Assembly: GCA_049999805.1 (NCBI GenBank)
Contig: JBNGIO010006294.1
Location: 1-60,710, forward strand
DNA: 60,710 nucleotides
Direction of reading: 5' to 3'
From: Folioceros fuciformis
Lineage: Eukaryota
Notes under the pieces: model-generated
The model's input: the letters and a program-made list of their open reading frames with translations, nothing else
Told to the model about the DNA's origin: nothing
Databases searched by the model: none
Shown here: positions 1,103 to 43,910 of the stretch, in pieces
Layout of the letters: every line of letters starts with the position of its first letter
Position numbering within the stretch: the first letter of the stretch is position 1
Position numbers and translations under genes: made by a program

Positions 1103-3661
1103 TCAATGCCGGTCGTTACATGAACAGGACCCATCTCGGAATCGATGAACTCGGTGTGCGTCTCTCACGATGATCTCTCGATTCTCAAGGTGTGACATTA
1201 CCTTGGTGCTGCTGTGGCAATCGTTGCACATGCGAAGGCTTTTGGTCACCAGTAGAGGGGTACCATCCGGTGTGTTCAGCAGACCGTATGCCAAGGCTAG
1301 TTTCTCTGCATGCCCACACAGAGCATCCTCCTTCTCCTTCTCAGACATTTCCTTCAAAACCAAGTCTGTTTGTGGTACATGGCCTCCTTCCTCTTTCACC
1401 CTCAAGTTTACACTGCACAGCTTGGAGAAAATGTCGGGGCTTTCTTCCCCTACTGTGAACTCGTGAACCTCGTCTTTCACTTCTATGCATGCCTTGGCAG
1501 GCTTCTTGACAGCGCCTGCTACCTTCCTCCAGGTTTCAATCCTCTCCACATCCTGCCACCTGCCTGCGTTGGCATATATGTTGCCCAGCAGGACGTAAGG
1601 GCTGGCATCACCAGCGTCCAGTTCTACAAGGCGGTCGAAGCATCGCCTTCCACGAGCAACATCGCCATGGCTTTTGCAGGCACTCAGCAAAGCCGTCCAG
1701 CCCACAACGTCGTTCACGAGCGAAGTAGTTTGCAGCATCTGTTCAGCATCATCCAGTTGGCCTGACCGGCCAAGAAGGTCCACCATGCAACTGTAGTGCC
1801 GCTCGGACGGTTCTAACCCGTGATCCTCAACCATCATCCTGAAAAACTGCTGGCCCTCACGCACGAGGCCGGCATGGCTGCATGCCACAAGGAGACAGAT
1901 AAAGGATGTCTCATCTGGCTTAATACCTTGCAGGAGCATCTGTTCGAAGCAGCTGATTGCCATTTCACCCTCATTGTGTTGAGCATACCCGTTGAGCAGG
2001 GCCGTCCATGTCACCAGATCCCTTGTCGGCAACCTGGCGAACACATCGCGGGCCTCCTCCAAGTTTCCACATTTTCCGTACATGTCGACCAGGCAGTTCC
2101 CAATGGCTGCAACACCCTCAAGGCCTTGTTCCCGAATCTGAGAGTGGAGCTCCTTCCCTAGCTGCAAGGCTCCCACACTGGCACAAGCTTGAAGCAGGCA
2201 CACAAATGTTACATGATTGGCTGGAGTGATGCCCTCCTTTCGCATACGGGTGTACATAGCCAACGCATCCCGACAAAACCCCTGCCTTGTGTATCCCGAG
2301 ATCATGGCAGTCCATGTCACCACATCTCTCTTGGGCAATCTGTCAAACACGCTACGAGCATCCTCCAAGCTCCCACACTTGGCATACAAATTCACCAAGC
2401 AGTTACCTAGGACTGTATCCGCTTCCATGCCTCTACTCCGAACCTGCAAGTGAAGCTGCTTCCCCTGCTGCAGCGCACCCACGCTGGCGCATGCTTGAAG
2501 AAGGCACACAAATGTAACCTGATCGGCTGGATGCATCCCCTCCTGTTGCATCCTTTCATACAAAGCCAGGGCTTCTCGCCCCAACCCACGTTGAGCATAT
2601 CCTGCAATCAGAGCAGTCCATGTCACAACGTCTCGTCTGGGCAAACTGTCAAACACTTTCCGAGCATCAGCCACGCTCCCGCATCTAGCATACATAGTCA
2701 CCAAACTGTTGCACACAAACATATCGGCCTGAACAGGACTCGCCTGGAGATCAGCGTGAACCTCTTGGCCCGAATCCAGATCCTCTGCCGAAGCACAGGC
2801 CTTGAGAACTGCTGCAAACACATGGTTATTCGGCTCCACACTCGATTCTCGCATTCGCCGGTAAAGCTCCAGTGCCTGCATGGGCTGCCCGTGCTTGGCA
2901 TGTGCCAGTATGATGGACGACCACATATGGACAGTGGGCGCACTCACTTTGGTGAAGACCTGCATTGCATCCTCCAATTTGCCATACGAGGCATACATCC
3001 CGATCATGTGGGTCGCCAAGAATGCATTTCCCTCGTACCCACATTTGACAACAAAGGCATGAGCTTGCCTTCCACACACAAGATTTCCCTCTGCCATGCA
3101 CCTCTTCAGCACAAGATACAGCACACCCAGAGTCTCACCCGCACCACTTCCTTGCTGCACCAGAAGGTGCAACGCTTCAAGAGCATCACTCAGCTCGGCC
3201 TCTTCACACCGACGCCTCAGAGCCGCAACCATGCATTTCCTCTCTTCACCACCATCTCCTGCACCGAAGACAGGAGGCTCCCTCATCCCAACATCCCACC
3301 TGGCCAGTTGGGGATCCACCCAGGCTGGTTTGTTCGGGCTGTTGAGCCACAGCGCTTCCTTGGAGATCTTGTGCCTGAAGTCGGGATGGCGGGGGCCTTT
3401 CTTCCCCGTCCGAATGTCCCACCACTCGGAGGGGTCCGAGAAGAGGTGCTGCCATAGAACCTCCTGCCTCCCTCTCCGATCAATCCCCGCATCAGTGCAC
3501 GAGCCCACGCAAGACTCGCTCCTTGGCTTCACTGGCTGGATTGGGTTGGCTGACAACATGTTAGGCAGCCATGGCTGGGTGGCCAACGTGCGGGCATCGG
3601 CAAGTGCCGGATCCGGCGGCTGCAGGGCCAACGCCAGCTGCGGCTGGCGTTGCTGCTGCAT
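1103..3661 (-). CDS. PLS-class PPR protein with N-terminal OSB-like PDF motif and C-terminal E1-E2-DYW:KP domain ending in DRH (candidate organellar U-to-C editing factor)
   Basis: Intronless ORF with the first ATG at 3661. It has P/L/S triplets (DVVTWTALIAGY / VTFVCLLQACA / GNCLVDMYGKCG), KKPAKACIEV, ALCGHAEKLA and CNDCH, and ends CSCNDRH. Confidence 0.95.
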   Translation of the reverse strand: MQQQRQPQLALALQPPDPALADARTLATQPWLPNMLSANPIQPVKPRSESCVGSCTDAGIDRRGRQEVLWQHLFSDPSEWWDIRTGKKGPRHPDFRHKISKEALWLNSPNKPAWVDPQLARWDVGMREPPVFGAGDGGEERKCMVAALRRRCEEAELSDALEALHLLVQQGSGAGETLGVLYLVLKRCMAEGNLVCGRQAHAFVVKCGYEGNAFLATHMIGMYASYGKLEDAMQVFTKVSAPTVHMWSSIILAHAKHGQPMQALELYRRMRESSVEPNNHVFAAVLKACASAEDLDSGQEVHADLQASPVQADMFVCNSLVTMYARCGSVADARKVFDSLPRRDVVTWTALIAGYAQRGLGREALALYERMQQEGMHPADQVTFVCLLQACASVGALQQGKQLHLQVRSRGMEADTVLGNCLVNLYAKCGSLEDARSVFDRLPKRDVVTWTAMISGYTRQGFCRDALAMYTRMRKEGITPANHVTFVCLLQACASVGALQLGKELHSQIREQGLEGVAAIGNCLVDMYGKCGNLEEARDVFARLPTRDLVTWTALLNGYAQHNEGEMAISCFEQMLLQGIKPDETSFICLLVACSHAGLVREGQQFFRMMVEDHGLEPSERHYSCMVDLLGRSGQLDDAEQMLQTTSLVNDVVGWTALLSACKSHGDVARGRRCFDRLVELDAGDASPYVLLGNIYANAGRWQDVERIETWRKVAGAVKKPAKACIEVKDEVHEFTVGEESPDIFSKLCSVNLRVKEEGGHVPQTDLVLKEMSEKEKEDALCGHAEKLALAYGLLNTPDGTPLLVTKSLRMCNDCHSSTKVMSHLENREIIVRDAHRVHRFRDGSCSCNDRH

Positions 3662-3841
3662 TGCAATGTGCACTGGCTGGTTCCCGCAAATCCAGGTCTG
3701 ACACGTCTGTCCAGCAACCTGGTCTGATCTTAGAGGCCTGTCGGCCTCAGGAAACGTGCTTGGATCAAACTCTGTAGTGGAAACACTTCGGAACCCGTGA
3801 GTCTAGGAATCGAGATAAGGTCATTCTGGTCTGTCGTGGGC

Positions 3842-6800
3842 ATGGCTTTCTCCTCCGTGTCGTCAGTCTTGACATCTTCGACGCACGTAGCCTGTCAAAT
3901 TCTGGCAGAGTTGCATGCTCCCTGCCTTGCTGTCCCTGCTAGCCTGAGGCAGCCGGCGCAAGGATTTCGTCTGGGCCACAGTGACTTGTTTGGAGATGGT
4001 TGCACTGGGGCCTTCAAATGCAGTCACCAGAGTTCAGGTGGGAGGGCGAGGAACTGGGCCTGCCTGGCAAGACTGCGAGATGACGGGAACACTAAAGGTG
4101 GAGAATATTTCAGGGACGATGCTGCTAGCGAGAGTCTTACCTTCGACAGTTGGTTGGAGAGTACCTCTGTTGCAAAGAGTTCTCTGGTTGAAGACGGTGG
4201 AGGGCCACTCTCAGATGTCACAGACGTAAGGCCTGCCACCGGGCAGGAGGATAAGCAAGAGGATTGGGGATGGTCCGACTCTGGCACTGAGGTGCCAGCA
4301 GAAGCATCCACGTCGGGCAACGGGGCCAGGGACCGTGAGAAGGATGATAACGCAAGGTTTCGGATAAGAAATGGCCGCGAGGTAAGGATGCAGGACTTGC
4401 TATAATTGAGTGGTCTTCTGATTTGCCTCTGCCCCTTGGAGACTGGGTGTGGGGTGCCATCGGCTGTATGAGGTCTGATAAAGCATCACCTCAGTGCAGA
4501 TTTATGAGGAGAAGGCGTATTTGGTTGGAATTGAGCGTAAGGATGGCACCAATTCCGTATTCTCCATAACAGAGTCTCTTGCGGAGCTGGCACAGTTGGC
4601 TGACACTGCTGGGGTTGTTGTAGTTGGCTCCACATACCAGAGGTAGGTGCGGGTGGATGAGGATGTTTCTTGCCGTCTCGAACATGCTTTGTCCTAAAAC
4701 TCCCTCCAGGTTGGAGCATCCGAACCCGAAGACATATATAGGGTCTGGAAAGGTGGCAGATGTCAAGACAGCCATCCGTGCATTTGATGTTGAGACTGTG
4801 ATTTTCGATGACGAGCTATCACCAGGGTCAGTGGCCCAGGATAAGAATCTTTCTTTTGCCACCTGCGAGCTGCTCATGTTGGGGGTTCAGTATAACAGCA
4901 CGAGAATCTTTGTTTGAGATTGAGGAACAGTGTTCATTACAATGCAGACAGTTGAGGAACCTGGAGAAGGAATTTGGGAACGATGTGCGAGTCTGTGACA
5001 GGACGGCATTGATTCTTGATATTTTCAACCAACGAGCAGCCACTCGTGAAGCCTCGCTGCAGGTCCCCTTGCATCCTTGGTCTTGGGTTCTCCTTGGTGC
5101 TGCTCGTCTTCAAGGAATTTTAATGAACAATTGCTTCACAACATTACCTTGACTTCAGGTCGATCTGGCACAATTGGAATACCAACTCCCCAGGTTAACA
5201 AGAATGTGGTCACATCTTGAGAGACAGGCTGGAGGACTTGTGAAGGGTATGGGTGAGAAGCAGATCGAGGTTGATAAACGACTTCTCCGCACAAGGGTAG
5301 GGTGAAATACTTTCTGTATCATGTTTCTTCATTTGAGCGGACATTAAGACAGCGTCTTCATGGCATCTCCTTCGTTCTTAGAGGGTTGCAACTCATCTGT
5401 TTCAATGGTCGTCGTGCAGATAGCAGGTCTTAAGAAGGAGCTGGAATCGGTACGAGAGCATCGGCAGCAGTACCGTGATCGACGAGCATCAGTCCCCATT
5501 CCAGTCCTCTCACTTGTAACTACCGGATGACAGCTTGGCTTATGACATGAATGGGCACGCAGCAGCTTTAACACACGTGTACTGCCTGGCAGGTTGGTTA
5601 CACAAATGCGGGCAAGAGCACACTTTTGAACCGCTTGAGCAATGCAGGTGTGCTGGCTGAGGACCAGCTTTTTGCCACTCTTGACCCAACAACGAGGCGC
5701 GTTGAAGTATGACATTCTCCAATACTTCCTGTCTTTTTGGCAACAGCATAGTTGTCAATGTTTCGGCTTACCTGGGATACTTCAAGACACTGATTTCAAG
5801 ATACTTCCTCTCCAACGTATTCTCGTGTAGTTGCCAAATGGGAAGGAAGTTTTGTTCACAGACACAGTGGGATTTATTCAAAAGCTTCCGACACAGCTTG
5901 TAAGCAAAAGCCACAACCTACTGCCGTGCATGCTACAGGCCCAGAGGTGGAGCCACTTGAATGCTCTCAATGTTTACAATATAACAGACTTACTACACCT
6001 GTCTGCTGTCAGGTTGCCGCCTTCCGCGCCACTTTAGAAGAGATCAGCGATTCATCGTTGATGCTACACGTTGTAGATATCAGGTTGGTTGGTGTATAAT
6101 ATGGATCAATGTATTCTGGGTTCAGTAGCACCTTTTCAGTAACGTGGGTCATACCCTTGCATGGCTCTACTTGGCCGATGCAGCCATCCTATGGCAAAGC
6201 AGCAAATTGAAGCTGTAAGTAATATTCTAAATGAGCTCGACGTCAGTCACATTCCAGTCATATCCGTGTGGAACAAGGTGGGTTCCATCAAACCGGATAA
6301 TGAGCACTCTTGCCCTGCCTTACAAAGGTGATGGATGTCACATGTTATCTGACCTGTTCTTGTTATTCCTAGGTTGACAGGGCTGCCAATCCCAACGCCT
6401 GCAGAGCTGAGGCAGCTCGGAGAGGTAACGTGGTGTGCATATCAGCTCTCACAGGAGAAGGCATGGACGAGTTTTTCCAAATGATCGACAGCAAGATAAA
6501 GGTGACGTTTGATTTGAGCTGTAGCAGGAGCAAATGCGAAAGCGTTTGTGTCAGAGCATCTGAACGTTTGGAAGGTCCATGTACGCAGGATCTCCTGGTC
6601 AGGGTTCAGGCTGTGGTTCCCTACGGACAAGGGGAACTGGTTAACAGCATTCATCGATTAGGCATCGTGGAACAAGAGGTTAGGTTTAGGCATCTCTTGG
6701 TCCCTATTTGCACTACACGTGGACTGCTATGACAAGCTTTCGGTCTTGTGCAGGAATACATAGAGCAGGGAACGCTTGTCACAGCACACGTTCCATTGGC

Positions 6801-7560: not shown

Positions 7561-9932
7561 CTACTCCATGTCCTTCATCTCCAGAGCGGGAGTCATCGTG
7601 AGTTTTTGATTCACAACGTCCTTCACTCTTTCCCGCAACTTTCGTCTCTGGTCGTGAATCCGCCGCAAGCCAGTCCCCACCACAACTGTGGAGTAAAGAC
7701 AGTGGGTGACCATTGGAGCCAATATATTACCAGTCTGTAAGCAAAAAAGGATATCAGCCATGGCTAAGTGGTGCACTGAAGTGCCTGAAGTGACAACCCC
7801 GTAGTCGGTCCTCTCTCAACGCAAAATACCGTACCTGAATCCATTCCACTCCCAGGTACAGGGCCAACAAAGCCTCCATAAGTGGGGAGTAAATCTTTCG
7901 TAACTGACGCCGCTCATACCAAACTGATACAAACAGACGACTGGTTAAAAAAGAGTTGAACGAAATCAGGCGGCAGATAGGATGGATCGTGCAATTTACA
8001 CACCCTCAACACGCTTCTTCAAGTCTCGTTTGCCTTGATTACTATGAGATATGATGTACTTCGGATCTGCTCAGCACATGTCCACATTTCAGGAACTGAA
8101 GGTTTTCGAAAGCAGGGAAGGACTTCTGAATCAAGGATGACGTCTACTTGAAGCACTACCTTTTGGGGAAGAGATGATATAGTACATGGATCCAATGAGA
8201 GATGAGGTGAGAAATGCTGCAAACCCTTGCGCAAATGGTACAAACAAGGGGATAAAGCCAGTCTGCGACCACAAAGCAGAACACTACAGGCATCAGAAAC
8301 AACTACCACACCGAGAAACCTAACGAAAGCAGAAAACACCGAAAACTTTTACCAGAGCTGCGACGCCTAGCACAGTTTCATCCACTCCTTCACTTCCAGT
8401 GATTTTCAGAGCGTGTGTGAGGCCGCCCTGGAGAAACACATCAAGGCAAATCAAGATCGTGCCGAATGACGAACAGCCGAGCCAAGACATGACAACTGGG
8501 AGAAACGAAATATGGACGACGTAGGTAAACCGACCAGGTACGAACCTGAATTGCCACCCGGAAGAACATCTCCTCTGAGAGTGCTCCCGTGGCAACCACG
8601 AAAGCAAACTGGTAGACGAGCCATGTCAGACGATCAGGCAGAAGGCCTACATGACTAGCCAAAGTGCAAAGATGCGCAAACATTTGAGAACCAAAAACAC
8701 CCGCAATAATCACATCATTACCTGCCAAGGGGACATCCCAGCGAAGAAATCCATAATCTCATTATCTTCGACATCTCGTATAGCTCTTGCGGCAGGCCAA
8801 TGTTTTACTACTTCGTCCTGCCACAGTTCGGACAAGTGAGAAGCCAGTTCGCGCAAGATCCAAGAGACTTTTAAATCAAACCAGATGGAGTCAAACATCA
8901 TACAAACCAAGTCCGTCACTCACCTCGAGGATGAAGAGTATGGCAGCCATCGGAGGAACGGCGTACCCAACCCCCTTCATTGCCATTTCGATGTCCAACT
9001 CAAAGCCACCCCAGCAATCGATTCCAATGACGTTGCACAGGATGTTGCCGGCCAGGGCCAGGCCACCATACATTACTAAAAGGCACAACAAAACACAAGT
9101 TACGCCACGCCCTGCTCGACTTGCACGAACGACAGCTACTAACCCTGTCGACGGCAGTCTCTTCCACACGACAAGCACCACCAGACAGCAGGTCGCAGCA
9201 CCCAAAGCTCACCGGCGGCATAGACCACTCTGAACGCCATGTTAATTTGTTCCCAGCTCGGATCGGCCTCATCGACGAGAGCAACCATGGGCTGGACTCT
9301 CCATTCCGCACCCTGCACGGTTCCACCGCCCACCTCAAAATCATCAGAAGTCTGACAACAACCCACCAATACCTCATTCCTTCCAACAGGCCATCGACGT
9401 GGGTCGCAATTCCCACAAAACTCACGTCCAATGCCCGCATGTCGCCCACGTCCCGCATATCCTGACCGCCTTTAGCTGTCATTTTCTCTTCTACCCGATC
9501 CGACCCCCTCCCCCTCAGGGCCCNNNNNNNNNNNNNNNNNNNNNNNNNNNNNNNNNNNNNNNNNNNNNNNNNNNNNNNNNNNNNNNNNNNNNNNNNNNNN
9601 NNNNNNNNNNNNNNNNNNNNNNNAGGCTCCCCGCCACTCTGCCTCCGCCCTTCCAGACACGCCACGGATTCCAGCCTCCCGGACACGGAGGCCATAGAAA
9701 GGGACTGAACGGCCCCGGACCAGCTCTTCCCCTTACTCCTGGGACTGCGCCAGCAGCTGGCCAGCCCCCCGAGATCCCTGGAGCAGCCAGAGGAAGAAGC
9801 CGCAAAGCACCTGTCGTGGATGCCGCCATTACTGCCTTGCTCAAAAGTTTTTTCGTCGAATGTGTGCTTGAAGCAGGAGCTGGGAGTGGCCACCAATGCT
9901 TCCCCCGCCACCACCACCCTACACAATGCCAT
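7561..9932 (-). CDS. SCO4: CAAX amino-terminal protease / CPBP-family membrane protein, SCO4-like (multi-exon; exon 1 interrupted by an assembly gap)
   Basis: Exons give MYGGLALAG...GYAVPPMAAILFILE, DEVVKHWPAARAIRDVED...FFAGMSPWQ, ALSEEMFFRVAIQ and TGNILAPMVTH. The start codon and the frame across the gap are uncertain. Confidence 0.75.
9524..9623. other. Assembly gap (100 N)
   Basis: Run of 100 N. Confidence 1.
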
Positions 9933-23412: not shown

Positions 23413-26400
23413 ATGGCCACAGCGAAGGCTAAAGCTTCTTTTCTTCTCTTTGCACGTCATTGGCTTTCAGGCAACACGAAACAAAGATGTGTGCGTACAG
23501 GGATCCCACGAGGAGCTCATTCTAACCTGATCTTAGGGAGTCGACCCCTGGCAAGCAAAGCCTCCAGGTGCAGAAGCGTTAGGAGCCCAGCTATTCCACT
23601 TCTGGAAACCTGTGTGGGTAGGGACAGGTTTACCAGCGATGGTCGTTGCCAGGAGCAGGAGCACCTGTGGCAACAATTCTTTCTGGAGCCTACCATGTGG
23701 TGGGACTACAGACGAGATAAGAAGAGCTTCCGTTCTCCTGACTTCCGGCGAAAGGGGTCCGGCGAGGAGCTGTGCTTAAGCGACGTATTCAAGCCAGCTT
23801 GGGTTGATGAGCAGCTCATTTCCTTGGATGTGCAGATGGGCCATTGTGCCAGTGGAAGGAGTCCAGCACTTCCACGTCCAATGGGACATGATGCCAGTGT
23901 AAGGAGCCCAGCAGTTCCAATTCGGATGGGCCGTGGTGCCTTTCCTTCCCAGTCCAGGTCTCAGGATAGGCCTGAACTTGGGAGGCGTGCAAGATCGAAA
24001 ATGGGGATTACTGCTGTTACCGTGGGCACGTTATGTCAACAGGGGAAGCTTTCTGAGGCCGTTGGAGCCCTGGAATCTCTGACGCTTGTAGACTCTCCCA
24101 TTTCTCAGTCAGCATTGTACACTGTACTGAAATTGTGTACAGCCAAGAAGGATCTGGTTGTGGGACGACGAGTTCATGACCTCATTATCAAACTTGGGTA
24201 TGAGTCGAGTACTTTCTTGGGGAACCATATCTTGCGCATGTATGCAGTTGGAGGTAGGCTAGAGGAGGCCTTGGATGTGCTTACCAGGGTGAGCAAACCG
24301 GATGCCTTCATGTGGTCTTCCATAATATCCGCATATGCTAAGCAAGGGAAACCTAATGAAGCCATACAACTGTATCATGAGATGCGGGGGTCAGGAGTTA
24401 AGGCGGATGCTCACGTCTTTGTAGCTGCCCTTCAGGCTTGTGCATTTGCTGCCGACCTTGAATTTGGCAGACAAGTGCACCACGATGTGGTGAGGAGTGG
24501 CATTCCTACTAACTTGATTGTTGGCAACTGTCTGGTGGACATGTATGCAAAATGTGGCCGACTGAAAGATGCACGCCAGGTTTTTGACAGCATGGCAACG
24601 AAGAATGTGGTTACATGGACCGCCCTGATATCTGGGTACGCTAAATGTGGTCAACTGGAAGAAGCACGCCAGATATTTGACAGGATGAACAGAAAGGATG
24701 TGGTAACGTGGAATGCTCTGATATCTGCTTATGCACAGCAAGGACGTGGCCACGAGGTCCTTCTTCTGTATGGACAAATGGAGCAAGAGGGCCTGATTGC
24801 AGCGGATCACGTTACTTTTTCTTGCCTTCTGAATGCCTGTGCTAGCACTGGTGCCTTACAGAAGGGCAGGCAGCTGCACTGTCAGATTGTGAGAAAAGGA
24901 CTGCTCGATGATGTAGTGTTGGGTACCTGCCTTGTGGACATGTATGCAAAATGTGGTGAACTGGAAGATGCGCGCCAGGTTTTTGACAGCATGCCCACCA
25001 AGAACGTGGTGACATGGACCGCTCTGATCGCTGGGTATGATAGGCAAGGACTCGGTCAAGAGGCGCTTGAGGTGTATGGACAAATGGAGGAGGGGGGGCT
25101 TATTTTGGGTGATGATGCGTCTTTTGGTTGTCTTCTCAAGGCCTGTGGAAGTACTGGCGCCTTGCAAAAGGGCAGGCAGCTGCACTCACAGATGGTCAAA
25201 AGAGGGTTGCTGGATAATGTTGTGTTGGGCAACTGCCTGGTAGACATGTATGCAAAATGTGGTGAACTGGATGATGCTCGCCAGGTTTTTAACGGCATGG
25301 CGACAAAGAATGTGGTGACATGGAATGCCCTGTTAGCGGGATATGTACAGCAAGGACTCGGCCAAGAGGCGCTTGTTGTGTATGAACAAATGGAGCAGGA
25401 GGGCCTGATTGTGTCTGACGATGTGACTTTTGCTTGCCTTTTGAAAGCCTGTGGAAGCAGTGGTGCATTACAGAAGGGCAGGCAGCTGCACTCGCAGATT
25501 GTGGAAAAAGGACTTGTGGGTAACTTAGTGTTGGGCAACTGCCTGGTTGACATGTATGCCAAATGTGGTGAACTGGAAGATGCTCGCCAGGCCTTCGATA
25601 GCATGAACACAAAGGATGTGGTGACATGGAATGCCCTGATATCTGGGTATGGTACTTGTGATGATAGTCAGAAAGCACTATCTCGTTTTGAGGAGATGTT
25701 AGGTGCCGGTATTCAGCCCAATGATGTTACTTTTACTTGCCTTTTAGTGGCATGCGGTCACGGAGGCCTGGTCCTAGAGGGTCGCAAGCACTTCGATTCT
25801 ATGGCAGAACAGTATGGCATCAAACCTAGTATTGAGCATTGCAACTGTATGATTGATCTCCTTGGGCGTGCTGGCCATTTAGACGAGGCAGAGAAGATGC
25901 TACTACAATGTGACGGCCGAAGTAATGTTGTTGGGTTGACGTCTTTGTTGAACTCGTGTAAAGGTCACGGGGACATAGAGAGGGCAAGGTGGTGTTTCGA
26001 AAGCCTTGTGAGGCTGGACCCCCAGCAGGCGTCCGCATATGTGCTCATGGCCAATGCCTATGCGGATGCAGGCAGGTGGAGCGATGTAGACAGGATTGAG
26101 ACTCAGAGAAGGGTAGCGGGAGCTAACAAGAAACCTGCATTGGCGACCATTGAGGTGAACAAGCAGGTACATAAATTTATGGTGGGAGAAAAGAGAGAGG
26201 ATATTGCTCTTAAGGTAGAGACCACGAATGCACGGCTGAAGCTGGAAGGGGGCCACGTCCCTCATACGCAGTTGGTATTGAAGCCACTGTTTGAGAAGGA
26301 AAAGGAAGATGCCCTTTGTGGGCATGCTGAAAAGCTAGCTCTGGCGTTTGGTCTGTTGAACACTCCGAGTGGGACACCTCTGGTGGTAACGAAGAATCTA

Positions 26401-26532
26401 CGTATGTGCAGTGACTGCCACAGCTCCACGGAGATCATGTCAAGGCTTGAACGAAGGGACATTGTGGTAAGGGATGGGTACCGAGTGCACCGATTCGCAG
26501 CTGGTTGCTGCAGTTGTCAAGGTCGACCATGA
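23413..26532 (+). CDS. PLS-class PPR with N-terminal PDF motif and DYW:KP domain ending in GRP (tandem copy 1)
   Basis: 1039-aa intronless ORF with an R/S-rich transit-like N-terminus, P/L/S/SS motifs, KKPALATIEV, GHAEKLA, CSDCH and CSCQGRP. Confidence 0.96.
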   Translation: MATAKAKASFLLFARHWLSGNTKQRCVRTGIPRGAHSNLILGSRPLASKASRCRSVRSPAIPLLETCVGRDRFTSDGRCQEQEHLWQQFFLEPTMWWDYRRDKKSFRSPDFRRKGSGEELCLSDVFKPAWVDEQLISLDVQMGHCASGRSPALPRPMGHDASVRSPAVPIRMGRGAFPSQSRSQDRPELGRRARSKMGITAVTVGTLCQQGKLSEAVGALESLTLVDSPISQSALYTVLKLCTAKKDLVVGRRVHDLIIKLGYESSTFLGNHILRMYAVGGRLEEALDVLTRVSKPDAFMWSSIISAYAKQGKPNEAIQLYHEMRGSGVKADAHVFVAALQACAFAADLEFGRQVHHDVVRSGIPTNLIVGNCLVDMYAKCGRLKDARQVFDSMATKNVVTWTALISGYAKCGQLEEARQIFDRMNRKDVVTWNALISAYAQQGRGHEVLLLYGQMEQEGLIAADHVTFSCLLNACASTGALQKGRQLHCQIVRKGLLDDVVLGTCLVDMYAKCGELEDARQVFDSMPTKNVVTWTALIAGYDRQGLGQEALEVYGQMEEGGLILGDDASFGCLLKACGSTGALQKGRQLHSQMVKRGLLDNVVLGNCLVDMYAKCGELDDARQVFNGMATKNVVTWNALLAGYVQQGLGQEALVVYEQMEQEGLIVSDDVTFACLLKACGSSGALQKGRQLHSQIVEKGLVGNLVLGNCLVDMYAKCGELEDARQAFDSMNTKDVVTWNALISGYGTCDDSQKALSRFEEMLGAGIQPNDVTFTCLLVACGHGGLVLEGRKHFDSMAEQYGIKPSIEHCNCMIDLLGRAGHLDEAEKMLLQCDGRSNVVGLTSLLNSCKGHGDIERARWCFESLVRLDPQQASAYVLMANAYADAGRWSDVDRIETQRRVAGANKKPALATIEVNKQVHKFMVGEKREDIALKVETTNARLKLEGGHVPHTQLVLKPLFEKEKEDALCGHAEKLALAFGLLNTPSGTPLVVTKNLRMCSDCHSSTEIMSRLERRDIVVRDGYRVHRFAAGCCSCQGRP

Positions 26533-27540: not shown

Positions 27541-30500
27541 ATGGCCAACGCGCAGGCTAAGGCTTCTTTCCTTCTCCTCGCACGTTATTGGCTTTCAGGT
27601 GGAACCCGACGAATTGGTGGGTGTACAGGGATTCTACGAGGAGGTCATTCGAATCTGGGTTTATGGAGTCGATCCCTGGCCAGCAAAGCCGCCAGGGGCA
27701 GTAGTGTAAGGAGTCCAGCACTTCCAGTTCTGGAAAGGTATGTAGGTAGGGACGGGTTGTCCAGCGATGGTCGTTGCCAGGAGCAGGAGCACTTGTGGCA
27801 ACAATTTTTCCTGGAGCCTACCATGTGGTGGGACTATAGACGAGATAAGAAGAGCTTCCGGTCTCCTGACTTCCGGCGGAAGGGGTCTGGCGAGGAGCTA
27901 TGCTTAAACGATGTGTTTAAGCCAGCTTGGGTTGATGAGCAGCTCATTTCCTTGGATGTGCAGATGGGCCACGGTGCCAGTGGATGGAGTCCAGAACTTC
28001 CACGTCCAATGGGTCATGATGCCAGAGCAAGGAGCCCAGCAATCTCGAATCGGATGAGCCGTGGTGCCTCTCCTTCCCAGTCCAGGTCTCAGGACAAACC
28101 TGCACCTGGGAGGCGTGCTAGATCAGAAATGGGCGTCGTGACCGCTGTTCCCGTGAGCACGTTATGTCAACAAGGGAAACTTTCTGAGGCCGTTGGAGCC
28201 CTGCAATCTCTGGCTGACACAGACTATCCCATTTCTCCGTCTCTGTTCTACACCGTACTGAAATTGTGTACAGCCAAGAAGGATTTGGTCGCGGGGCGAC
28301 TAGTTCATAATCTCGTTGTCAAACATGGATATGAGTCGAGTGCATTCTTGGGGAACCATATCTTACGAATGTATGCTGTTGGAGGTAGGCTAGAGGAGGC
28401 CTTGGATGTGCTCACCAGGGTTGGTGAGCCGGATGCCTTCATGTGGTCTTCCATAATATCCGCATACGCTAAGCAAGGAAAACCTAATGAGGCCATTCAA
28501 CTATATCATGAGATGCGGAGGTCAGGAGCTAAGGCGGATGCTCACGTCTTTGTAGCTGCCCTTCAGGCTTGTGCATTTGCTGCTGACTTGGAATCTGGCA
28601 GACAAGTGCACCACGATGTGGTGAGGAGTGGCATTCCCATTAACTTGATTACTGGCAACTGCCTGGTGGACATGTATGCGAAATGTGGTCAACTGAAAGA
28701 TGCACGCCAGGTTTTTGACAGCATGGCCACAAAGGATGTGGTGACATGGACTTCCTTGGTATCTGGGTATGCAAGAAGTGGTGAACTGGAAGCTGCACGT
28801 CAAGTTTTTGACAGCATGAACAGAAAGGATGTGGTGACATGGACTGCCCTGATATCTGGTTATGCACAGCAAGGACGTGGCCACGAGGTGCTTCTTCTGT
28901 ATGGACAAATGGAGCAAGAGGGCCTGATTGTGGCTGACCGTTTTACTTTCGCAGGCCTTTTGAAGGCCTGTGGGATTACTGGTGCGTTGCAGAAGGGCAG
29001 GCAGCTGCATTCACAGATTGTGGAAAAAGGACTGCTTGATGACGTAGTGTTAGGCAACTGTCTGGTGGACATGTATGCAAAATGTGGTGAATTGAAAGAC
29101 GCACGCCAAGTGTTTGACAGCTTGTCCGCAAAAGACGTTGTGACGTGGACTTCCCTGATTGCTGGGTACTCTCAGCGAGGTCTCGGTCAAGAAGCGCTTG
29201 TTGTCTATGGACAAATGGAGGAGGGGGGTCTTATTTTGGCCGACGATTTTACTTTCTCATGCCTTCTGAAGGCCTGTGGAAGTACTGGTGCCTTGCAAAA
29301 GGGCAGGCAGCTGCACTCACAGATTGTCAATAGAGGACTGCTGGATAATGTTGTGTTAGGCAACTGTCTGGTAGACATGTATGCGAAATGTGGTGAACTG
29401 GATGATGCTCGCCAGGTTTTTAATAGCTTGGCTACGAAGAATTTAGTGACATGGAATGCCCTGTTAGCTGGATATGTACAGCAAGGACTCGGCCAAGAGG
29501 CGCTTGTTGTGTATGAACAAATGGAGCAGGAGGGCCTGTTTGTATCTGACGATGTGACTTTTGCTTGCCTTTTGAAAGCCTGTGGAAGCAGTGGTGCATT
29601 ACAGAAGGGCAGGCAGCTTCACTCACAGATTGTGGAGAAAGGACTGATGGATAACGTAGTGTTGGGCAACTGCCTGGTTGACATGTATGCCAAGTGTGGC
29701 GAATTGAAAGGTGCACGCGAGGCTTTTGACAGCATGCACACAAAGGATGTGGTGACATGGAATGCACTGATATCTGGGCATGGTACTTGTGATGACGGTT
29801 TCACAGCACTATCTTGTTTTGAGGAGATGTTAGGTGCCGGTATTCAGCCCAATGATGTTACTTTTACTTGCCTTTTAGTAGCATGCGGTCATGGGGGACT
29901 GGTCCATGAGGGTCGCAAGCACTTTAATTCCATGGTGGAACTGCATGGCATCAAACCTAGTGTTGAGCACTGCAATTGTATGATCGACCTTCTTGGGCGT
30001 GCTGGTCATTTAGATGAGGCACAGAAGATGCTATTGTTATGTGATGGCCAAAGTAACGTTGTCGGGTTGACGTCTTTGTTGAATGCCTGTAAAAGTTATG
30101 GCGACATAGAGATGGCGCGGTGGTGTTTTGAAAACATTGTAAAGCTGGACCCGCAGGAGGCGTCTGCATATGTGCTCATGGCCAATGCCTATGCGGATGC
30201 AGGTAGGTGGAGCGATGTAGACAGGATTGAAACACAGAGAAGGGTAGCCGGAGCTTACAAGAAGCCTGCATTGGCGACCATTGAGGTGAACAAGCAGGTC
30301 CATAAATTTTTGGTGGGAGAGAGGAGAGAGGATATTGCCCTTAAGGTAGAGAGCACGAATACTCGTCTCAAGCAGGAAGGAGGCCACGTACCTCATACAC
30401 AGTTGGTTTTAAAGCCACTTTTTGAGAAAGAAAAAGAAGATGCGCTTTGTGGGCACGCTGAGAAGCTAGCTCTGGCGTTTGGTCTGTTGAACACTCCAAG

Positions 30501-30663
30501 TGGGACACCTCTGGTGGTTACAAAGAATTTACGCATGTGCAGTGACTGCCACAGTTCTACGGAGATCATGTCAAGGGTTGAACAAAGGGACATTGTGGTA
30601 AGGGATGGGTACCGAGTGCATCGATTCGCAGGTGGTTGCTGCAGTTGTGAGGGTCGGCCGTGA
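27541..30663 (+). CDS. PLS-class PPR with N-terminal PDF motif and DYW:KP domain ending in GRP (tandem copy 2)
   Basis: 1040-aa ORF collinear with copy 1, ending CSCEGRP. Confidence 0.96.
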   Translation: MANAQAKASFLLLARYWLSGGTRRIGGCTGILRGGHSNLGLWSRSLASKAARGSSVRSPALPVLERYVGRDGLSSDGRCQEQEHLWQQFFLEPTMWWDYRRDKKSFRSPDFRRKGSGEELCLNDVFKPAWVDEQLISLDVQMGHGASGWSPELPRPMGHDARARSPAISNRMSRGASPSQSRSQDKPAPGRRARSEMGVVTAVPVSTLCQQGKLSEAVGALQSLADTDYPISPSLFYTVLKLCTAKKDLVAGRLVHNLVVKHGYESSAFLGNHILRMYAVGGRLEEALDVLTRVGEPDAFMWSSIISAYAKQGKPNEAIQLYHEMRRSGAKADAHVFVAALQACAFAADLESGRQVHHDVVRSGIPINLITGNCLVDMYAKCGQLKDARQVFDSMATKDVVTWTSLVSGYARSGELEAARQVFDSMNRKDVVTWTALISGYAQQGRGHEVLLLYGQMEQEGLIVADRFTFAGLLKACGITGALQKGRQLHSQIVEKGLLDDVVLGNCLVDMYAKCGELKDARQVFDSLSAKDVVTWTSLIAGYSQRGLGQEALVVYGQMEEGGLILADDFTFSCLLKACGSTGALQKGRQLHSQIVNRGLLDNVVLGNCLVDMYAKCGELDDARQVFNSLATKNLVTWNALLAGYVQQGLGQEALVVYEQMEQEGLFVSDDVTFACLLKACGSSGALQKGRQLHSQIVEKGLMDNVVLGNCLVDMYAKCGELKGAREAFDSMHTKDVVTWNALISGHGTCDDGFTALSCFEEMLGAGIQPNDVTFTCLLVACGHGGLVHEGRKHFNSMVELHGIKPSVEHCNCMIDLLGRAGHLDEAQKMLLLCDGQSNVVGLTSLLNACKSYGDIEMARWCFENIVKLDPQEASAYVLMANAYADAGRWSDVDRIETQRRVAGAYKKPALATIEVNKQVHKFLVGERREDIALKVESTNTRLKQEGGHVPHTQLVLKPLFEKEKEDALCGHAEKLALAFGLLNTPSGTPLVVTKNLRMCSDCHSSTEIMSRVEQRDIVVRDGYRVHRFAGGCCSCEGRP

Positions 30664-41036: not shown

Positions 41037-43910
41037 TCAGCCTTGCTTCTCATCCCCAACCAGAAAGCTATGCACCAGTCCATCGTTGTCCGTCCACCAA
41101 CTCTGACCAGGCTGCTTCATTGCCCTCATTCTTGTCCTCCTCGCCTGAATTTCCTCCGCCTTCTCCCACATCTGGGCACCAACATATATGTTGGACATCA
41201 AAACATGTGCTGCGACGTCTTCCTCCTGCATCTTCACTGCTTCGCTAAAGGCAGTGCATCCCACCTCCACGTTGCTCCACTTCTGACAAGCACCCAACAA
41301 GGTATGCCAAACTGCAGCATCAGGCCACATGGGCATTGATCTTACTAAAGCTAGGGCTTCATCCAGCTGTCCTGCTCGCCCCAGAAGATCCACCATGCAT
41401 GTGTAGTGCTCCTCTGTGGGAGTGATGCCATACTCTCTGCTCATAGCCTTAAAGTCCTCCCATCCTCTCTCCACTAGACCCACATGACTGCATACAGTGA
41501 GCACACTAAGGAATGTGACGCCATCTGGCTGCATGCCATCCTGTTTCATGTTGTGGAACAAGTTGAAGACCACGTCAGTCTCTCCTTGACAACTGTAGCC
41601 CGCGATCAGCGCATTCCAGGTGACGAGGTTTTTCTCAGGAAGCGCATCGAACACCTGCTGCGCATCAACCATGCTTCCAGACTTTCCGTACATGTTAATC
41701 AAACTGCCAGCCACGAACAGATTGGCTTGAAGGCCTTGTTCTACAATCTGTGCATGTAGTTGCTTTCCCAGACACAAAGCTGCCACATTTGCACATGCCT
41801 GCAGAAGACACACAAACGTCATCGAATCAGGTACAGACATGCCTTCTTCAAGCATGGCACTATATACACGAAGGGCTTCCTGACCCATGCCCTGCTTCGA
41901 ATATCCTGCTATCAGGGCAGTCCACGTTACAAGATCCTTGTGTACAAGCCTGTCAAACATAATTTGAGCATCTTCCATGCTGCCGCACTTTGCATACATA
42001 TTCACCAAACTGCTGGCCACAAACACATCAGCTTCATGCTCTCCTCCTCTTATCTGTGTGTAAAGCTGATGCCCAAACTCCAGAGCTGGGGTGCCCACAC
42101 TTGCACATGCCTGCAGCAGGGACACAAATGTGACTCCGTTGGGTACAACGATGTCCTGTTCTTGCATAGCACGGTAGAGACGCAGAGCTTCCTGCCCCAT
42201 GCCCTGCTGGGAATAACCTGCTATCATGGCGTTCCACGTCACCACGTGTTTTTGGCCGAGGCCATCGAACACCCTCTGAGCATCCTCCAAGCTGCCACAC
42301 TTGGCGTACATGTTGACCAAACTGCTAGCTACAAACGTATCAACTTCAAGTCCCTGTTTTCCAATTTGTGCATGAAGCTGCTTCCCCTTCTCCAAGGCAG
42401 GGGCCCCAACGCCTGCACATGCCTGCAGGAGGCACACCAACGCCGTGGAATCCAGTACAACAGTGCCTTCCTTTTGCATGGCACTGTGAAGACGAAGGGC
42501 TTCCTGCCCCTTGCCTTGCTGGGAGTACCCAGCAATCAAGGTAGTCCAAGTAACCACATCTTTTTGACCGAGTTTGTCAAACACTCTCTGCGCATCTTCC
42601 AAGCTGCCACACTGTGCATACATGTTCACCAAACTGTTGGCTACAAAACCATGGGCTTCACATCCTAGTTCTCTGATGTGCGCATGAAGCAGCTTCCCCT
42701 TCTCCAACGCTGAGTTCCCCACACTCGCACATGCCTGCAGGAGGCACACAAATGTCACAGAATCAGGTACATGGATGCCTTCTTCCAGCATGGCACTGTA
42801 GAGACGAAGGGCTTCCCTGCCCAAGCCCTTTTGGGAATACCCGGCTATCATGGTGGTCCACGTGATCACATCTTTGTGACCAAGGCCGTCAAAGACTCTC
42901 TGAGCCTCTTCCAAGCTGCCACACTTTGCATACATGTCCACCAAGCAGCTGCAAACGAACAAATTAGGCTGCACATCACTCGCTAACACATCAGCATGCA
43001 CCTTCTGCCCAGTTTTCAAGTCTGATCGTCTTGCACAAGCCTGAAGGGCTGATACGAAAACATGACCATCTGGCTTCACACCTGACCTGCGCATCCTATG
43101 ATACAATCCTATCGCCTTCATGTCTTGTCCATGTTTGATATGCGCAGAGATGATGCCAGACCACGTGAAAGAATCCGGTTCGGAAATAGCTTCAAATGCA
43201 TCCATTGCGTCTTGCAGCCGGCCATGAGAAGCATACATTCGAAGAATGTGGAAGCCCAGAAACGTGTTAGAATGGTAGCCCTTTGCCACCGTGCAGGCGT
43301 GGACGCGGCGACCCAGAACAAGATCCTTGTTTACCACACATTTCTTCAGGACATGATACAAGAGAGATTTGGAAATGGTACGGTATGTCTGAACCAGAAC
43401 CTCCAAGGCCTCAACAGCCTCAGTGAGACGACCCTCGTGACAAAGCTTGCTCACGATTTCTGCCGTCACGCTACTACTGTCACCTGCAGGCCTACGAGAG
43501 TCAGGACCATCCCGTAAACTCCTGTCGGAGCCACAACCACCCATCCCCATGTCCTGATCAGCAGGGTGCACATCCATCCAACCCGGCTTGTAGAAGTCGT
43601 TCAACCAGAGGGCCTCCTGGGAGTGCTTAAGCCGGATATTCGGCAAACGCACACTCTCCTTCTTCTTCAGCCTGTTCCCACGCCCAAATGTTGGGTCCCC
43701 AACAACTTGTCGCCCACAACCCTTGCTGGTTGCTGTCTCTCCAACCAAACGAGCTCTTGGCTGACTTGCAAGGGTGCTGCACCTCCCGACTTGGTTGTGC
43801 GCCAACGGTGGGTTCTTCCAAGTCTGCCGAGCTGTAGCTCTTCCCACAACACTCGTTGCCCCAGCAGCCATAGCTCGCGGGAGCGCGTGCGGAGCTATGG
43901 CAAATTGCAT
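41037..43910 (-). CDS. PLS-class PPR protein, E1-E2-E+ with WW-type PG box and no intact DYW
   Basis: 957-aa intronless ORF with a long PLS array, ending KQPGQSWWTDNDGLVHSFLVGDEKQG*. Confidence 0.93.
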   Translation of the reverse strand: MQFAIAPHALPRAMAAGATSVVGRATARQTWKNPPLAHNQVGRCSTLASQPRARLVGETATSKGCGRQVVGDPTFGRGNRLKKKESVRLPNIRLKHSQEALWLNDFYKPGWMDVHPADQDMGMGGCGSDRSLRDGPDSRRPAGDSSSVTAEIVSKLCHEGRLTEAVEALEVLVQTYRTISKSLLYHVLKKCVVNKDLVLGRRVHACTVAKGYHSNTFLGFHILRMYASHGRLQDAMDAFEAISEPDSFTWSGIISAHIKHGQDMKAIGLYHRMRRSGVKPDGHVFVSALQACARRSDLKTGQKVHADVLASDVQPNLFVCSCLVDMYAKCGSLEEAQRVFDGLGHKDVITWTTMIAGYSQKGLGREALRLYSAMLEEGIHVPDSVTFVCLLQACASVGNSALEKGKLLHAHIRELGCEAHGFVANSLVNMYAQCGSLEDAQRVFDKLGQKDVVTWTTLIAGYSQQGKGQEALRLHSAMQKEGTVVLDSTALVCLLQACAGVGAPALEKGKQLHAQIGKQGLEVDTFVASSLVNMYAKCGSLEDAQRVFDGLGQKHVVTWNAMIAGYSQQGMGQEALRLYRAMQEQDIVVPNGVTFVSLLQACASVGTPALEFGHQLYTQIRGGEHEADVFVASSLVNMYAKCGSMEDAQIMFDRLVHKDLVTWTALIAGYSKQGMGQEALRVYSAMLEEGMSVPDSMTFVCLLQACANVAALCLGKQLHAQIVEQGLQANLFVAGSLINMYGKSGSMVDAQQVFDALPEKNLVTWNALIAGYSCQGETDVVFNLFHNMKQDGMQPDGVTFLSVLTVCSHVGLVERGWEDFKAMSREYGITPTEEHYTCMVDLLGRAGQLDEALALVRSMPMWPDAAVWHTLLGACQKWSNVEVGCTAFSEAVKMQEEDVAAHVLMSNIYVGAQMWEKAEEIQARRTRMRAMKQPGQSWWTDNDGLVHSFLVGDEKQG

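What the first reader, a model, noticed from the sequence alone, without database searches (positions are those of the whole stretch)
3293..3463. OSB-type PDF ssDNA-binding module fused to the N-terminus of a PPR-DYW:KP editing factor
Seen: upstream of the PPR array the protein reads EVLWQHLFSDPSEWWDIRTGKKGPRHPDFRHKISKEALWLNSPNKPAWVDPQL. Established: this closely matches the ~50-aa PDF motif (LW..F..P..WWD.R..K....PDF.HK...ALWL....P.W) of plant organellar ssDNA-binding proteins (OSB1-4/PTAC9), where it binds ssDNA. Canonical PLS-DYW editing factors have only a transit peptide before the PPRs. Inference: a PDF-PPR-deaminase architecture could tether the editor to nucleoid ssDNA or R-loops for co-transcriptional editing, act as a built-in RNA-unfolding cofactor, or allow action on ssDNA. 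I am not aware of a functional description of this fusion, but I could not check the literature.
Basis: partly seen in the sequence, partly recalled or inferred. Interest (0 to 1): 0.88.

Follow-up and report, generated by a model that had tools for sequence, protein, structure and literature searches.

The report
PDF domain fused to PPR editors
A small single-stranded-DNA-binding module known from plant organelle OSB proteins really is fused to the front of this RNA-editing PPR protein, and the same overlooked fusion recurs in many PPR proteins of mosses, lycophytes and ferns, whatever their editing type.

Summary
Window 3293-3469 (minus strand) encodes a complete PDF motif at residues 69-127 of an 856-aa ORF (1103-3673). 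The rest of the ORF is a PLS PPR array, an E motif and a DYW:KP domain.

- **Homology:** 47-55% identity to the PDF repeats of OSB1/OSB2-type proteins. 682 library hits, including proteins named OSB3.
- **Structure and expression:** spliced-RNA-derived contigs cover it continuously with the PPR array. It lies behind a disordered presequence and folds as a confident mini-domain on a short flexible linker.
- **Selection:** between two tandem paralogues in the window it is the most constrained part of the protein (dN/dS 0.017).
- **Not KP-specific:** only 3 of 30 KP-type database proteins carry it. It also precedes PG-type DYW and E-type PLS proteins in Sphagnum, Diphasiastrum (17 clusters), Adiantum, Ceratopteris and Pteridium. 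A fourth PPR gene in the window keeps only a decayed relic.

Most likely it is an accessory domain that binds single-stranded nucleic acid. Whether the ligand is ssDNA or RNA is untested.

Pfam has no model that matches it, and my literature searches found no description of the fusion. I rate it a new variant of a known kind, of moderate to high interest.

The parts
1103..3673 (-). ORF of the PDF-PLS-E-DYW:KP protein (856 aa from GTG 3673; first ATG at 3661; stop codon 1103-1105). DRH variant: the protein ends CSCNDRH.
   Evidence: DRH and GRP variants as defined in PMC9478123
3470..3661 (-). Presequence, residues 5-68. Predicted disordered, Q/P-rich, and less typical of a transit peptide than those of genes 2-4.
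   Evidence: pLDDT <50 for residues 1-64; composition
3293..3469 (-). PDF mini-domain, residues 69-127
3251..3292 (-). Flexible linker, residues 128-141
   Evidence: pLDDT <50 for residues 128-141 in the full-length model
1670..3250 (-). PLS-type PPR helical array, residues about 142-668
   Evidence: Pfam PPR families; paired helices from H142 onward
1484..1669 (-). E motif (PF20431), residues 669-730. It includes the KKPAKA box (1490-1507) that stands where PG-type proteins have the PG box.
1112..1384 (-). DYW deaminase-like domain (PF14432), residues 764-854, with HAE, CNDCH and a DRH end
23413..26532 (+). Paralogue g2: presequence, PDF (23653-23823), long linker, PLS-E-DYW:KP; GRP variant
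27541..30663 (+). Paralogue g3, tandem duplicate of g2: PDF at 27781-27951; PLS-E-DYW:KP; GRP variant
41037..43910 (-). Paralogue g4: PLS-E protein with a PG box and no DYW. It keeps only a decayed PDF relic at 43569-43679 (PDF triad replaced by PNI; the N-terminal Trp-rich half is lost).
   Evidence: (i-E 6.8e-08, HMM positions 18-53)

Best explanation
The segment is a genuine PDF mini-domain, homologous to the ssDNA-binding repeats of plant OSB proteins. It was recruited to the N-terminus of PLS-class PPR proteins. In this gene it sits after a disordered presequence and before a flexible linker of about 14 residues that leads into the PPR superhelix, so it should be part of the mature organellar protein. 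It is not a feature of the U-to-C (KP) class. It marks a subfamily of PLS PPR proteins in seedless land plants that carry 1-3 N-terminal PDF domains with KP-DYW, PG-DYW or E-type ends. Shown here: homology, one-frame fusion, presence in RNA-derived contigs, a confident independent fold, strong purifying selection, and recurrence across lineages. Inferred: because the residues invariant in OSB repeats are the same ones invariant in PPR-borne repeats, the domain most likely keeps the OSB activity. That activity is sequence-independent binding of single-stranded nucleic acid, here acting as an accessory anchor next to the sequence-specific PPR tract. My split within this reading: about 40% it holds the factor on single-stranded DNA of the nucleoid (transcription bubbles, R-loops, replication intermediates), so that editing or RNA binding happens close to transcription. 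About 35% it contacts RNA 5' of the PPR footprint, adding affinity or keeping the RNA unfolded.
For: Homology: 682 phmmer hits, including proteins named OSB3. 7 of 10 top non-PPR hits have an SSB-like domain at E<=0.01, and 4 of those reach Pfam's cut-off. 47-55% identity to OSB1/OSB2-type repeats. PPR-borne and other PDFs share one consensus, W..l..nP..WwD.R..K..p..PDFkHK.....LW....P.WV (68 versus 629 domains). Invariant in 41 mixed repeats: W4 D16 R18 K21 P27 D28 F29 P46. Fusion and expression: one ORF. Contigs of run X1 are identical to the window and cover 815-2329 and 2597-4379 with no joint in 3293-3469. The same contig carries GT..AG joints over the neighbour's introns, so it derives from spliced RNA. 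Contigs of two related organisms (X2: 2301-3656; X7: 2302-3656) also bridge the PDF and the PPR array. They have indels only at 3523-3537, summing to 15 bases, which is in frame. Fold: AF2 on 41 repeats gives pLDDT 94.2 and pTM 0.77, helix-strand-strand-helix. In the full-length model the PDF has pLDDT 85-90, flanked by segments 1-64 and 128-141 with pLDDT <50. Selection, g2 versus g3: dN/dS is 0.017 for the PDF (11 synonymous and 1 non-synonymous change; dS 0.43, so no recent gene conversion). It is 0.55 for the presequence, 0.50 for the linker, 0.18 for PPR-E and 0.08 for DYW. Recurrence: 12 of the 150 listed hits and 20 of the 120 listed hits carry PPR arrays. All 37 stored PDF+PPR proteins have the PDF(s) N-terminal, in 1-3 copies. 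Named sources are Diphasiastrum, Ceratopteris, Adiantum, Pteridium and Sphagnum. Known activity: the PDF of AtOSB1 is reported sufficient for ssDNA binding, and OSB1/2 prefer ssDNA over dsDNA or RNA (passages of the reviews PMC6963530 and PMC4166229).
Against: There are no binding data for any PPR-borne PDF. The OSB biochemistry is known to me only through review passages, because the original paper (Zaegel 2006) is not held. The domain is dispensable in many relatives: 27 of 30 KP-type proteins lack it. By a crude test, 7 of the 10 with at least 70 residues upstream of the first PPR cap lack it. Gene g4 has let it decay. Designer KP editors without it are active in bacteria and human cells. 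The reported OSB preference for ssDNA over RNA argues against the RNA-helper sub-reading. Nothing here shows nucleoid association. The presequence of this gene is atypical (first acidic residue at position 17), and the mature N-terminus is unknown. Contigs cannot give the transcript strand, and X1's contig merges neighbouring genes. dN/dS rests on one paralogue pair and 57 codons.
Confidence: 0.65

Rival explanations
1. KP-specific cofactor: the PDF is a built-in helper needed for the U-to-C (amination) reaction of DYW:KP enzymes.
For: All 3 DYW:KP genes of the window carry an intact PDF. Both hornwort KP variants (DRH and GRP) are represented among PDF bearers.
Against: Only 3 of 30 KP-type proteins retrieved by the KP domain have it. 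It occurs on 6 PG-type DYW proteins (Sphagnum P0124; Diphasiastrum P0180, P0197, P0202, P0262, P0267) and on many E-type proteins. Designer KP proteins without a PDF edit U to C (PMC9478123 passages).
Confidence: 0.04
2. Protein-protein module: in the PPR context the PDF mediates oligomerisation or docking to another organellar protein (for example OSB, Whirly or the polymerase machinery) rather than binding nucleic acid.
For: It is small, Trp-rich, independently folded and on a flexible tether. AtOSB2 is reported to be a tetramer (PMC6963530 passage). The fold has no solved relative that could settle the matter.
Against: The conserved basic and aromatic set (W, W, D, R, K, PDF, K, W) is unchanged between OSB and PPR contexts. 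The only activity reported for it is ssDNA binding. Tandem arrays of 2-13 copies fit polymer binding better.
Confidence: 0.15
3. Disposable sequence: the segment is part of the cleaved targeting peptide, or a neutral relic of a past domain shuffle with no present role.
For: It lies near the N-terminus. In some database models it starts at residues 8-24. g4 shows that it can decay.
Against: dN/dS is 0.017 against 0.55 for the true presequence next to it. It has a confident fold, whereas residues 1-64 are disordered. The same invariant residues are kept as in the OSB repeats, which lie mostly in the C-terminal half of those proteins. It is retained from mosses to ferns.
Confidence: 0.05
4. DNA-directed action: the PDF brings the DYW domain onto single-stranded organellar DNA so that the enzyme modifies DNA bases.
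For: PDF binds ssDNA in OSB1. It is fused to deaminase-type domains here.
Against: 14 of the 20 PDF-PPR proteins listed show no DYW family, and one more (P0042) ends differently. The PPR tract still specifies an RNA-type target. No DNA activity of DYW domains appeared in the passages read.
Confidence: 0.03

Closest known systems
[quoted passage not shown]
   Same: The roughly 55-aa PDF repeat is the same: same invariant residues, 47-55% identity, occurrence in 1 to several copies, and organellar proteins.
   Different: OSBs have an SSB-like OB fold in front and carry their PDFs mostly in the C-terminal half (median relative position 0.71). Here there is no SSB domain, the PDF is N-terminal (median 0.13), and it is followed by a PPR array and a deaminase-like domain.
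Hornwort DYW:KP editing factors, DRH and GRP variants (PMC9478123)
   Same: PLS array, E motif, KPA box in place of the PG box, HAE active-site variant, CxxCH, and DRH (this gene) or GRP (g2, g3) ends.
   Different: The published description and the designer proteins start at the PLS array. No N-terminal PDF is mentioned in the passages I read, and most KP-type database proteins lack it (27 of 30).
Other PPR fusions with nucleic-acid-binding or accessory domains (RRM-PPR fusions; MORF, ORRM and OZ partners), surveyed in PMC13386178
   Same: The idea is the same: a general RNA/nucleic-acid or helper module is joined to a sequence-specific PPR tract.
   Different: That survey does not contain the words PDF or OSB (0 occurrences). 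PDF has no matching Pfam model, so architecture surveys based on domain libraries would miss it.

Membership tests
PDF motif (as defined for OSB proteins) | A motif of about 50 aa with the conserved Pro-Asp-Phe signature (PMC6963530 passage) | tested here: met
   PDF triad plus W4, D16, R18, K21 and P46 are invariant across 41 repeats from OSB and PPR contexts. Whole-library E-values go down to 1e-48 to proteins named OSB3.
PDF motif (as defined for OSB proteins) | Binds single-stranded DNA | not testable with these tools
   Reported for AtOSB1 only (review passages).
OSB protein family | SSB-like OB-fold domain preceding the PDF repeats | tested here: not met
   No PF00436 hit in P0002 at E<=1, while 7 of 10 top non-PPR hits have one at E<=0.01. 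The protein is therefore not an OSB; it only shares the PDF module.
PLS-class PPR editing factor | PPR array followed by an E motif and a DYW deaminase-like domain with HxE and CxxC(H) | tested here: met
   PF01535 4.1e-72, PF20431 2.3e-16, PF14432 2.6e-35. HAE and CNDCH are seen in the sequence.
DYW:KP subclass (hornwort DRH variant) | KP(A) box instead of the PG box; HAE instead of HSE; C-terminal DRH or GRP instead of DYW (PMC9478123 passages) | tested here: met
   KKPAKA, HAEKLA and a CSCNDRH end. g2 and g3 end in GRP.
DYW:KP subclass (hornwort DRH variant) | U-to-C editing activity at a defined organellar site | not testable with these tools
   No organelle transcriptome or assay is available here.

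The most novel reading that the evidence does not exclude
PDF-PPR proteins couple RNA editing and RNA binding physically to the DNA template. The PDF clamps the displaced single DNA strand of transcription bubbles or R-loops in organelle nucleoids. PLS factors of seedless plants would then meet their targets co-transcriptionally, a built-in accessory function in lineages whose editing factors act as single polypeptides. If so, adding or removing PDFs would tune editing efficiency and could improve designer C-to-U and U-to-C editors.
Probability: 0.2. Interest if true: 0.85.

Novelty: new variant of a known kind. Interest (0 to 1): 0.62.

Why it matters
PLS-class PPR proteins are usually described as a transit peptide, a PPR tract and C-terminal E/DYW domains. 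This finding shows a conserved, strongly constrained extra domain in front of the tract in many such proteins of seedless plants. The domain has a known nucleic-acid-binding pedigree. No Pfam family matched it here, and none of my three literature searches that joined the OSB/PDF terms with PPR or DYW, nor the search for 'PDF motif' alone, turned up a description of the fusion. That gives a concrete, testable handle on where and when editing factors meet their RNAs: on the nucleoid, or on free RNA. It also adds a small (about 57 aa), independently folding module to try on engineered RNA editors. Finally, it corrects the tempting idea that the module explains U-to-C chemistry.

Tried and rejected
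**Searches that returned nothing useful**
- Own genome: none is held, so no genome-wide PPRome count was possible.
- Pfam on the 57-aa segment: no family at E<=1.
- PDB by sequence profile: the best hit was E 0.87, to CP29, which I treat as chance.
- Foldseek against the PDB: 0 matches at E<=0.001; 12 at E<=10.
- VIA-align wide: best Z 2.3, with 10 of 48,161 chains at Z>=2. So the fold has no assignable solved relative, but this does not show that the fold is new.
- ESM Atlas on residues 60-140: no usable hit.
- Earlier findings of this scan: nothing by words, by sequence or by place.
- The first word-based homologue search on residues 55-140 found only 1 protein among 14 candidates. The profile search was needed to go further.

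**Literature**
- 'PDF motif' occurs in 5 papers. Three concern OSB and none concerns PPR proteins.
- 'PDF motif'/OSB1/pentatricopeptide: 14 papers, none relevant to a fusion.
- OSB plus DYW as whole words: 1 paper, where the match sits in a table of Arabidopsis PPR localisations (no OSB-PPR fusion in the passage shown).
- Two broader searches were also negative for this purpose, and one was noise.
- Zaegel et al. 2006 is not held, and I did not look for Gutmann et al. 2020 (recalled), so a mention in either cannot be excluded. Supplements were not consulted.

**Sequencing runs**
- No RNA holder is listed on record. The runs' kind is the tool's guess. What I report is only what the contigs cover and bridge.

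**Crude test**
- The N-terminal completeness test uses a PPR-like query, so it can match internal repeats. Its result of 3 of 10 is rough.

**Not attempted**
- I did not run complex prediction, because I make no protein-protein binding claim.
- I could not superpose the model on an OSB PDF model, because no tool compares two models directly.
Full report
**1. Observation**

It is residues 71-127 of a single ORF, 1103..3673 (-), 856 aa from a GTG, with the first ATG at 3661. Downstream, Pfam finds a long PPR array, an E motif (residues 669-730) and a DYW deaminase-like domain (residues 764-854). No Pfam family matches the peptide itself.

The C-terminal region has KKPAKA where PG-type proteins have the PG box. 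It also has HAEKLA, CNDCH and the end CSCNDRH. According to passages of PMC9478123, HAE is specific to DYW:KP proteins, and hornwort KP proteins fall into DRH and GRP variants named after their last three residues. This gene is therefore a DRH-type DYW:KP protein, and the window probably comes from a hornwort. That is an inference.

**2. Is it a PDF motif?**

Yes.
- phmmer with residues 60-135 against 1.84 billion representative proteins gave 682 hits at E<=1e-3, 206 at <=1e-10 and 24 at <=1e-30. The matched part of the query is the motif itself.
- Of 10 top hits without PPRs, 7 have an SSB-like domain at E<=0.01, and 4 of those reach Pfam's cut-off.
- Sources name some of the hits OSB3: Chenopodium quinoa, E 8.4e-48, and Euphorbia peplus, E 8.2e-24.
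- BLASTP of the 57 aa gives 47-50% identity to two repeats of an Arabidopsis thaliana 371-aa protein whose PDF stretch (as printed) is identical to that of P0220, named OSB2 by its sources. It gives 47-55% identity to four repeats of Eutrema OSB1.
- A mixed alignment of 41 repeats (22 from PPR proteins, 19 from OSB-type or other proteins) has invariant W4, D16, R18, K21, P27-D28-F29 and P46, and nearly invariant P11, W14, K32, L38, W39, W48 and V49.
- Consensus lines computed separately for 68 PPR-borne and 629 other repeats are essentially the same.

Review passages state that the PDF motif of AtOSB1 is sufficient for ssDNA binding, and that OSB1/2 prefer ssDNA to dsDNA or RNA (PMC6963530 and PMC4166229). 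The original paper is not held.

**3. Is it part of the gene product?**

The reading frame is continuous. Contigs of run X1 are identical to the window (0 other letters). They cover 815-1395, 1369-1691, 1663-2329 and 2597-4379, and show no joint within 3293-3469. The last contig continues into the divergent neighbour gene with GT..AG joints (4640>4708, 4825>4947 and others), so it derives from spliced RNA.

Two runs from related organisms give contigs that bridge the PDF and the first PPRs: X2 at 2301-3656 (75 other letters) and X7 at 2302-3656 (109 other letters). Their indels lie only at 3523-3537 and sum to 15 bases, which is in frame. Homology ends about 5 bases from the ATG.

Caveats: the runs' RNA status is the tool's guess apart from these joints. 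Contigs show no strand. X1's contig merges neighbouring genes.

**4. Anatomy**

AlphaFold2 on the 41-repeat alignment gives a confident mini-domain (pLDDT 94.2, pTM 0.77): helix 2-9, strands 14-16 and 29-31, helix 49-56.

In a full-length model (20-row alignment, mean pLDDT 84.7), residues 1-64 and 128-141 have pLDDT <50. The PDF blocks score 85-90, and the PPR superhelix starts at residue 142. The layout is therefore: disordered presequence, folded PDF, short flexible tether, PPR tract.

The fold has no significant match in the PDB.

Presequences of the paralogues g2, g3 and g4 have no acidic residue in their first 57-64 residues and are rich in R/K/S/T, as organellar targeting peptides are. 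That of this gene is less typical.

**5. Selection**

The window holds three more PPR genes.
- g2 (23413-26532) and g3 (27541-30663) are tandem duplicates. Each has a PDF, a long low-complexity linker, PLS-E-DYW:KP domains and a GRP end.
- Codon comparison of g2 and g3 gives dN/dS of 0.55 for the presequence, 0.017 for the PDF, 0.50 for the linker, 0.18 for PPR-E and 0.08 for DYW.
- The PDF figure rests on 11 synonymous and 1 non-synonymous change, with dS 0.43. The PDF is the most constrained part of the protein in this one pair.
- Against this, g4 (41037-43910, E-type with a PG box, no DYW) keeps only a decayed half-motif at 43569-43679 (i-E 6.8e-08, HMM positions 18-53; PDF replaced by PNI). 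The domain can therefore be lost.

**6. Distribution**

- Of the 150 proteins listed, 12 have PPR arrays by local phmmer.
- A profile of 14 PPR-borne repeats found 311 proteins at E<=1e-3 among the 8000 candidates scored. Of the 120 listed, 20 carry PPR Pfam families and 5 of these also carry PF14432. The named proteins among the remaining 100 are OSB1-4 or uncharacterised proteins, nearly all from flowering plants.
- Named PPR bearers: 17 clusters from Diphasiastrum complanatum, plus Adiantum capillus-veneris, Ceratopteris richardii, Pteridium aquilinum and Sphagnum compactum.
- In all 37 stored proteins with both features, the PDFs are N-terminal, in 1-3 copies. The median relative position is 0.13, against 0.71 in other PDF proteins.
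- The DYW-bearing ones from Sphagnum and Diphasiastrum are PG-type: xPG box (P0202 and P0267 have VRG and MAG instead), HSE (P0262: HSV), GDYW or RDYW end.
- Conversely, a search with this protein's KP region returned 90 proteins. Of 30 KP-type, 3 have a PDF (P0279 DRH, P0281 GRP, P0289 GRP). Of 60 PG-type (the named ones angiosperm), 0 have one.
- Many KP-type entries are N-terminally truncated. By a crude test, 10 have at least 70 residues upstream of the first cap-like match, and 3 of those have a PDF.
- On a quick tree of 279 repeats, the PPR/other label changes 12 times, against a mean of 44.75 (minimum 39) in 300 shuffles. Rows with more than 6 gaps, and rows 85% or more identical to a kept row, were dropped, taking 349 to 279. 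This fits one or a few old fusion events followed by PPR gene duplication. However, related sequences share labels and the branches are weakly supported.
- PDF repeats also occur in algal proteins (a Sanguina MAG and an MMETSP transcript), so the OSB-type context is probably the older one. That is an inference.

**7. Mechanism**

Shown: a conserved, folded, constrained PDF domain is tethered in front of PLS PPR tracts, independent of the C-terminal class.

Inferred: since the same residues are conserved as in OSB repeats, it most likely binds single-stranded nucleic acid without sequence specificity. I split this into two sub-readings.
- About 40%: it anchors the factor on nucleoid ssDNA, so the PPR tract meets RNA at the site of transcription. 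The reported ssDNA-over-RNA preference of OSBs supports this.
- About 35%: it contacts RNA 5' of the PPR footprint. This is consistent with its N-terminal position, because PPR tracts bind RNA with the N-terminal repeats at the 5' end (recalled knowledge).

Rivals:
- Protein-protein module: about 15%.
- Disposable presequence or relic: about 5%, contradicted by dN/dS and by the fold.
- KP-specific cofactor: about 4%, contradicted by the distribution and by active PDF-less designer KP editors.
- DNA-directed deamination: about 3%.

**8. Novelty**

No Pfam model matches the motif.
- 'PDF motif' occurs in 5 held papers, none about PPR proteins.
- Three searches combining the OSB/PDF terms with PPR or DYW terms found no description of the fusion; a fourth, on N-terminal extensions of PLS/DYW proteins, found none either.
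- A 2026 kingdom-wide survey of editing-factor domain fusions contains neither 'PDF' nor 'OSB'.
- The database entries are labelled hypothetical or plain PPR proteins.
- Subscription papers and supplements were not visible, so prior mention cannot be excluded.

I rate it a new variant of a known kind. The fusion is real and widespread, but it does not explain U-to-C editing.

Noticed in passing
window 23413-26532 and 27541-30663 (+): Tandem duplicate PDF-PLS-E-DYW:KP genes of the GRP variant. They are 86.5% identical in the PPR-E part with dS about 0.4. Together with the DRH-type gene at 1103-3673 and the E-type gene at 41037-43910, that makes four PLS PPR genes in 60 kb.
   Followed up: partly
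window 43569-43679 (-): A decayed half PDF motif in an E-type PPR gene that has a PG box and no DYW domain. It shows that the module can be lost after the fusion.
   Followed up: yes
window 3674-3800: The PPR gene and a multi-intron plus-strand neighbour (exons joined at 4640>4708, 4825>4947 and others) are divergently arranged, with very little DNA between them. Neighbour contigs start at 3699 or 3759 while the PPR ATG is at 3661. One RNA-derived contig of X1 runs across both genes.
   Followed up: partly
P0064 (1526 aa) and P0004 (1160 aa, Kingdonia uniflora): Other PDF contexts. P0064 has 3 PDF stretches ahead of a kinesin motor domain (PF00225, 1.8e-86), which may be a gene-model fusion. 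P0004 has 13 PDF stretches with a weak SSB match.
   Followed up: partly
window 47167-49686 (+): An ORF for an LRR receptor-like kinase (LRR families plus Pkinase, 4.3e-32).
   Followed up: no
window about 9400-9550: A run of 100 N (assembly gap) inside the window. ORFs across it translate as X.
   Followed up: no
window 1201: C in the DNA but T in most contig depth in all four runs laid (for example X1: 186 of 221). It lies close to contig ends (17-32 letters) within the DYW-coding region. It may be cross-mapping of paralogues.
   Followed up: no
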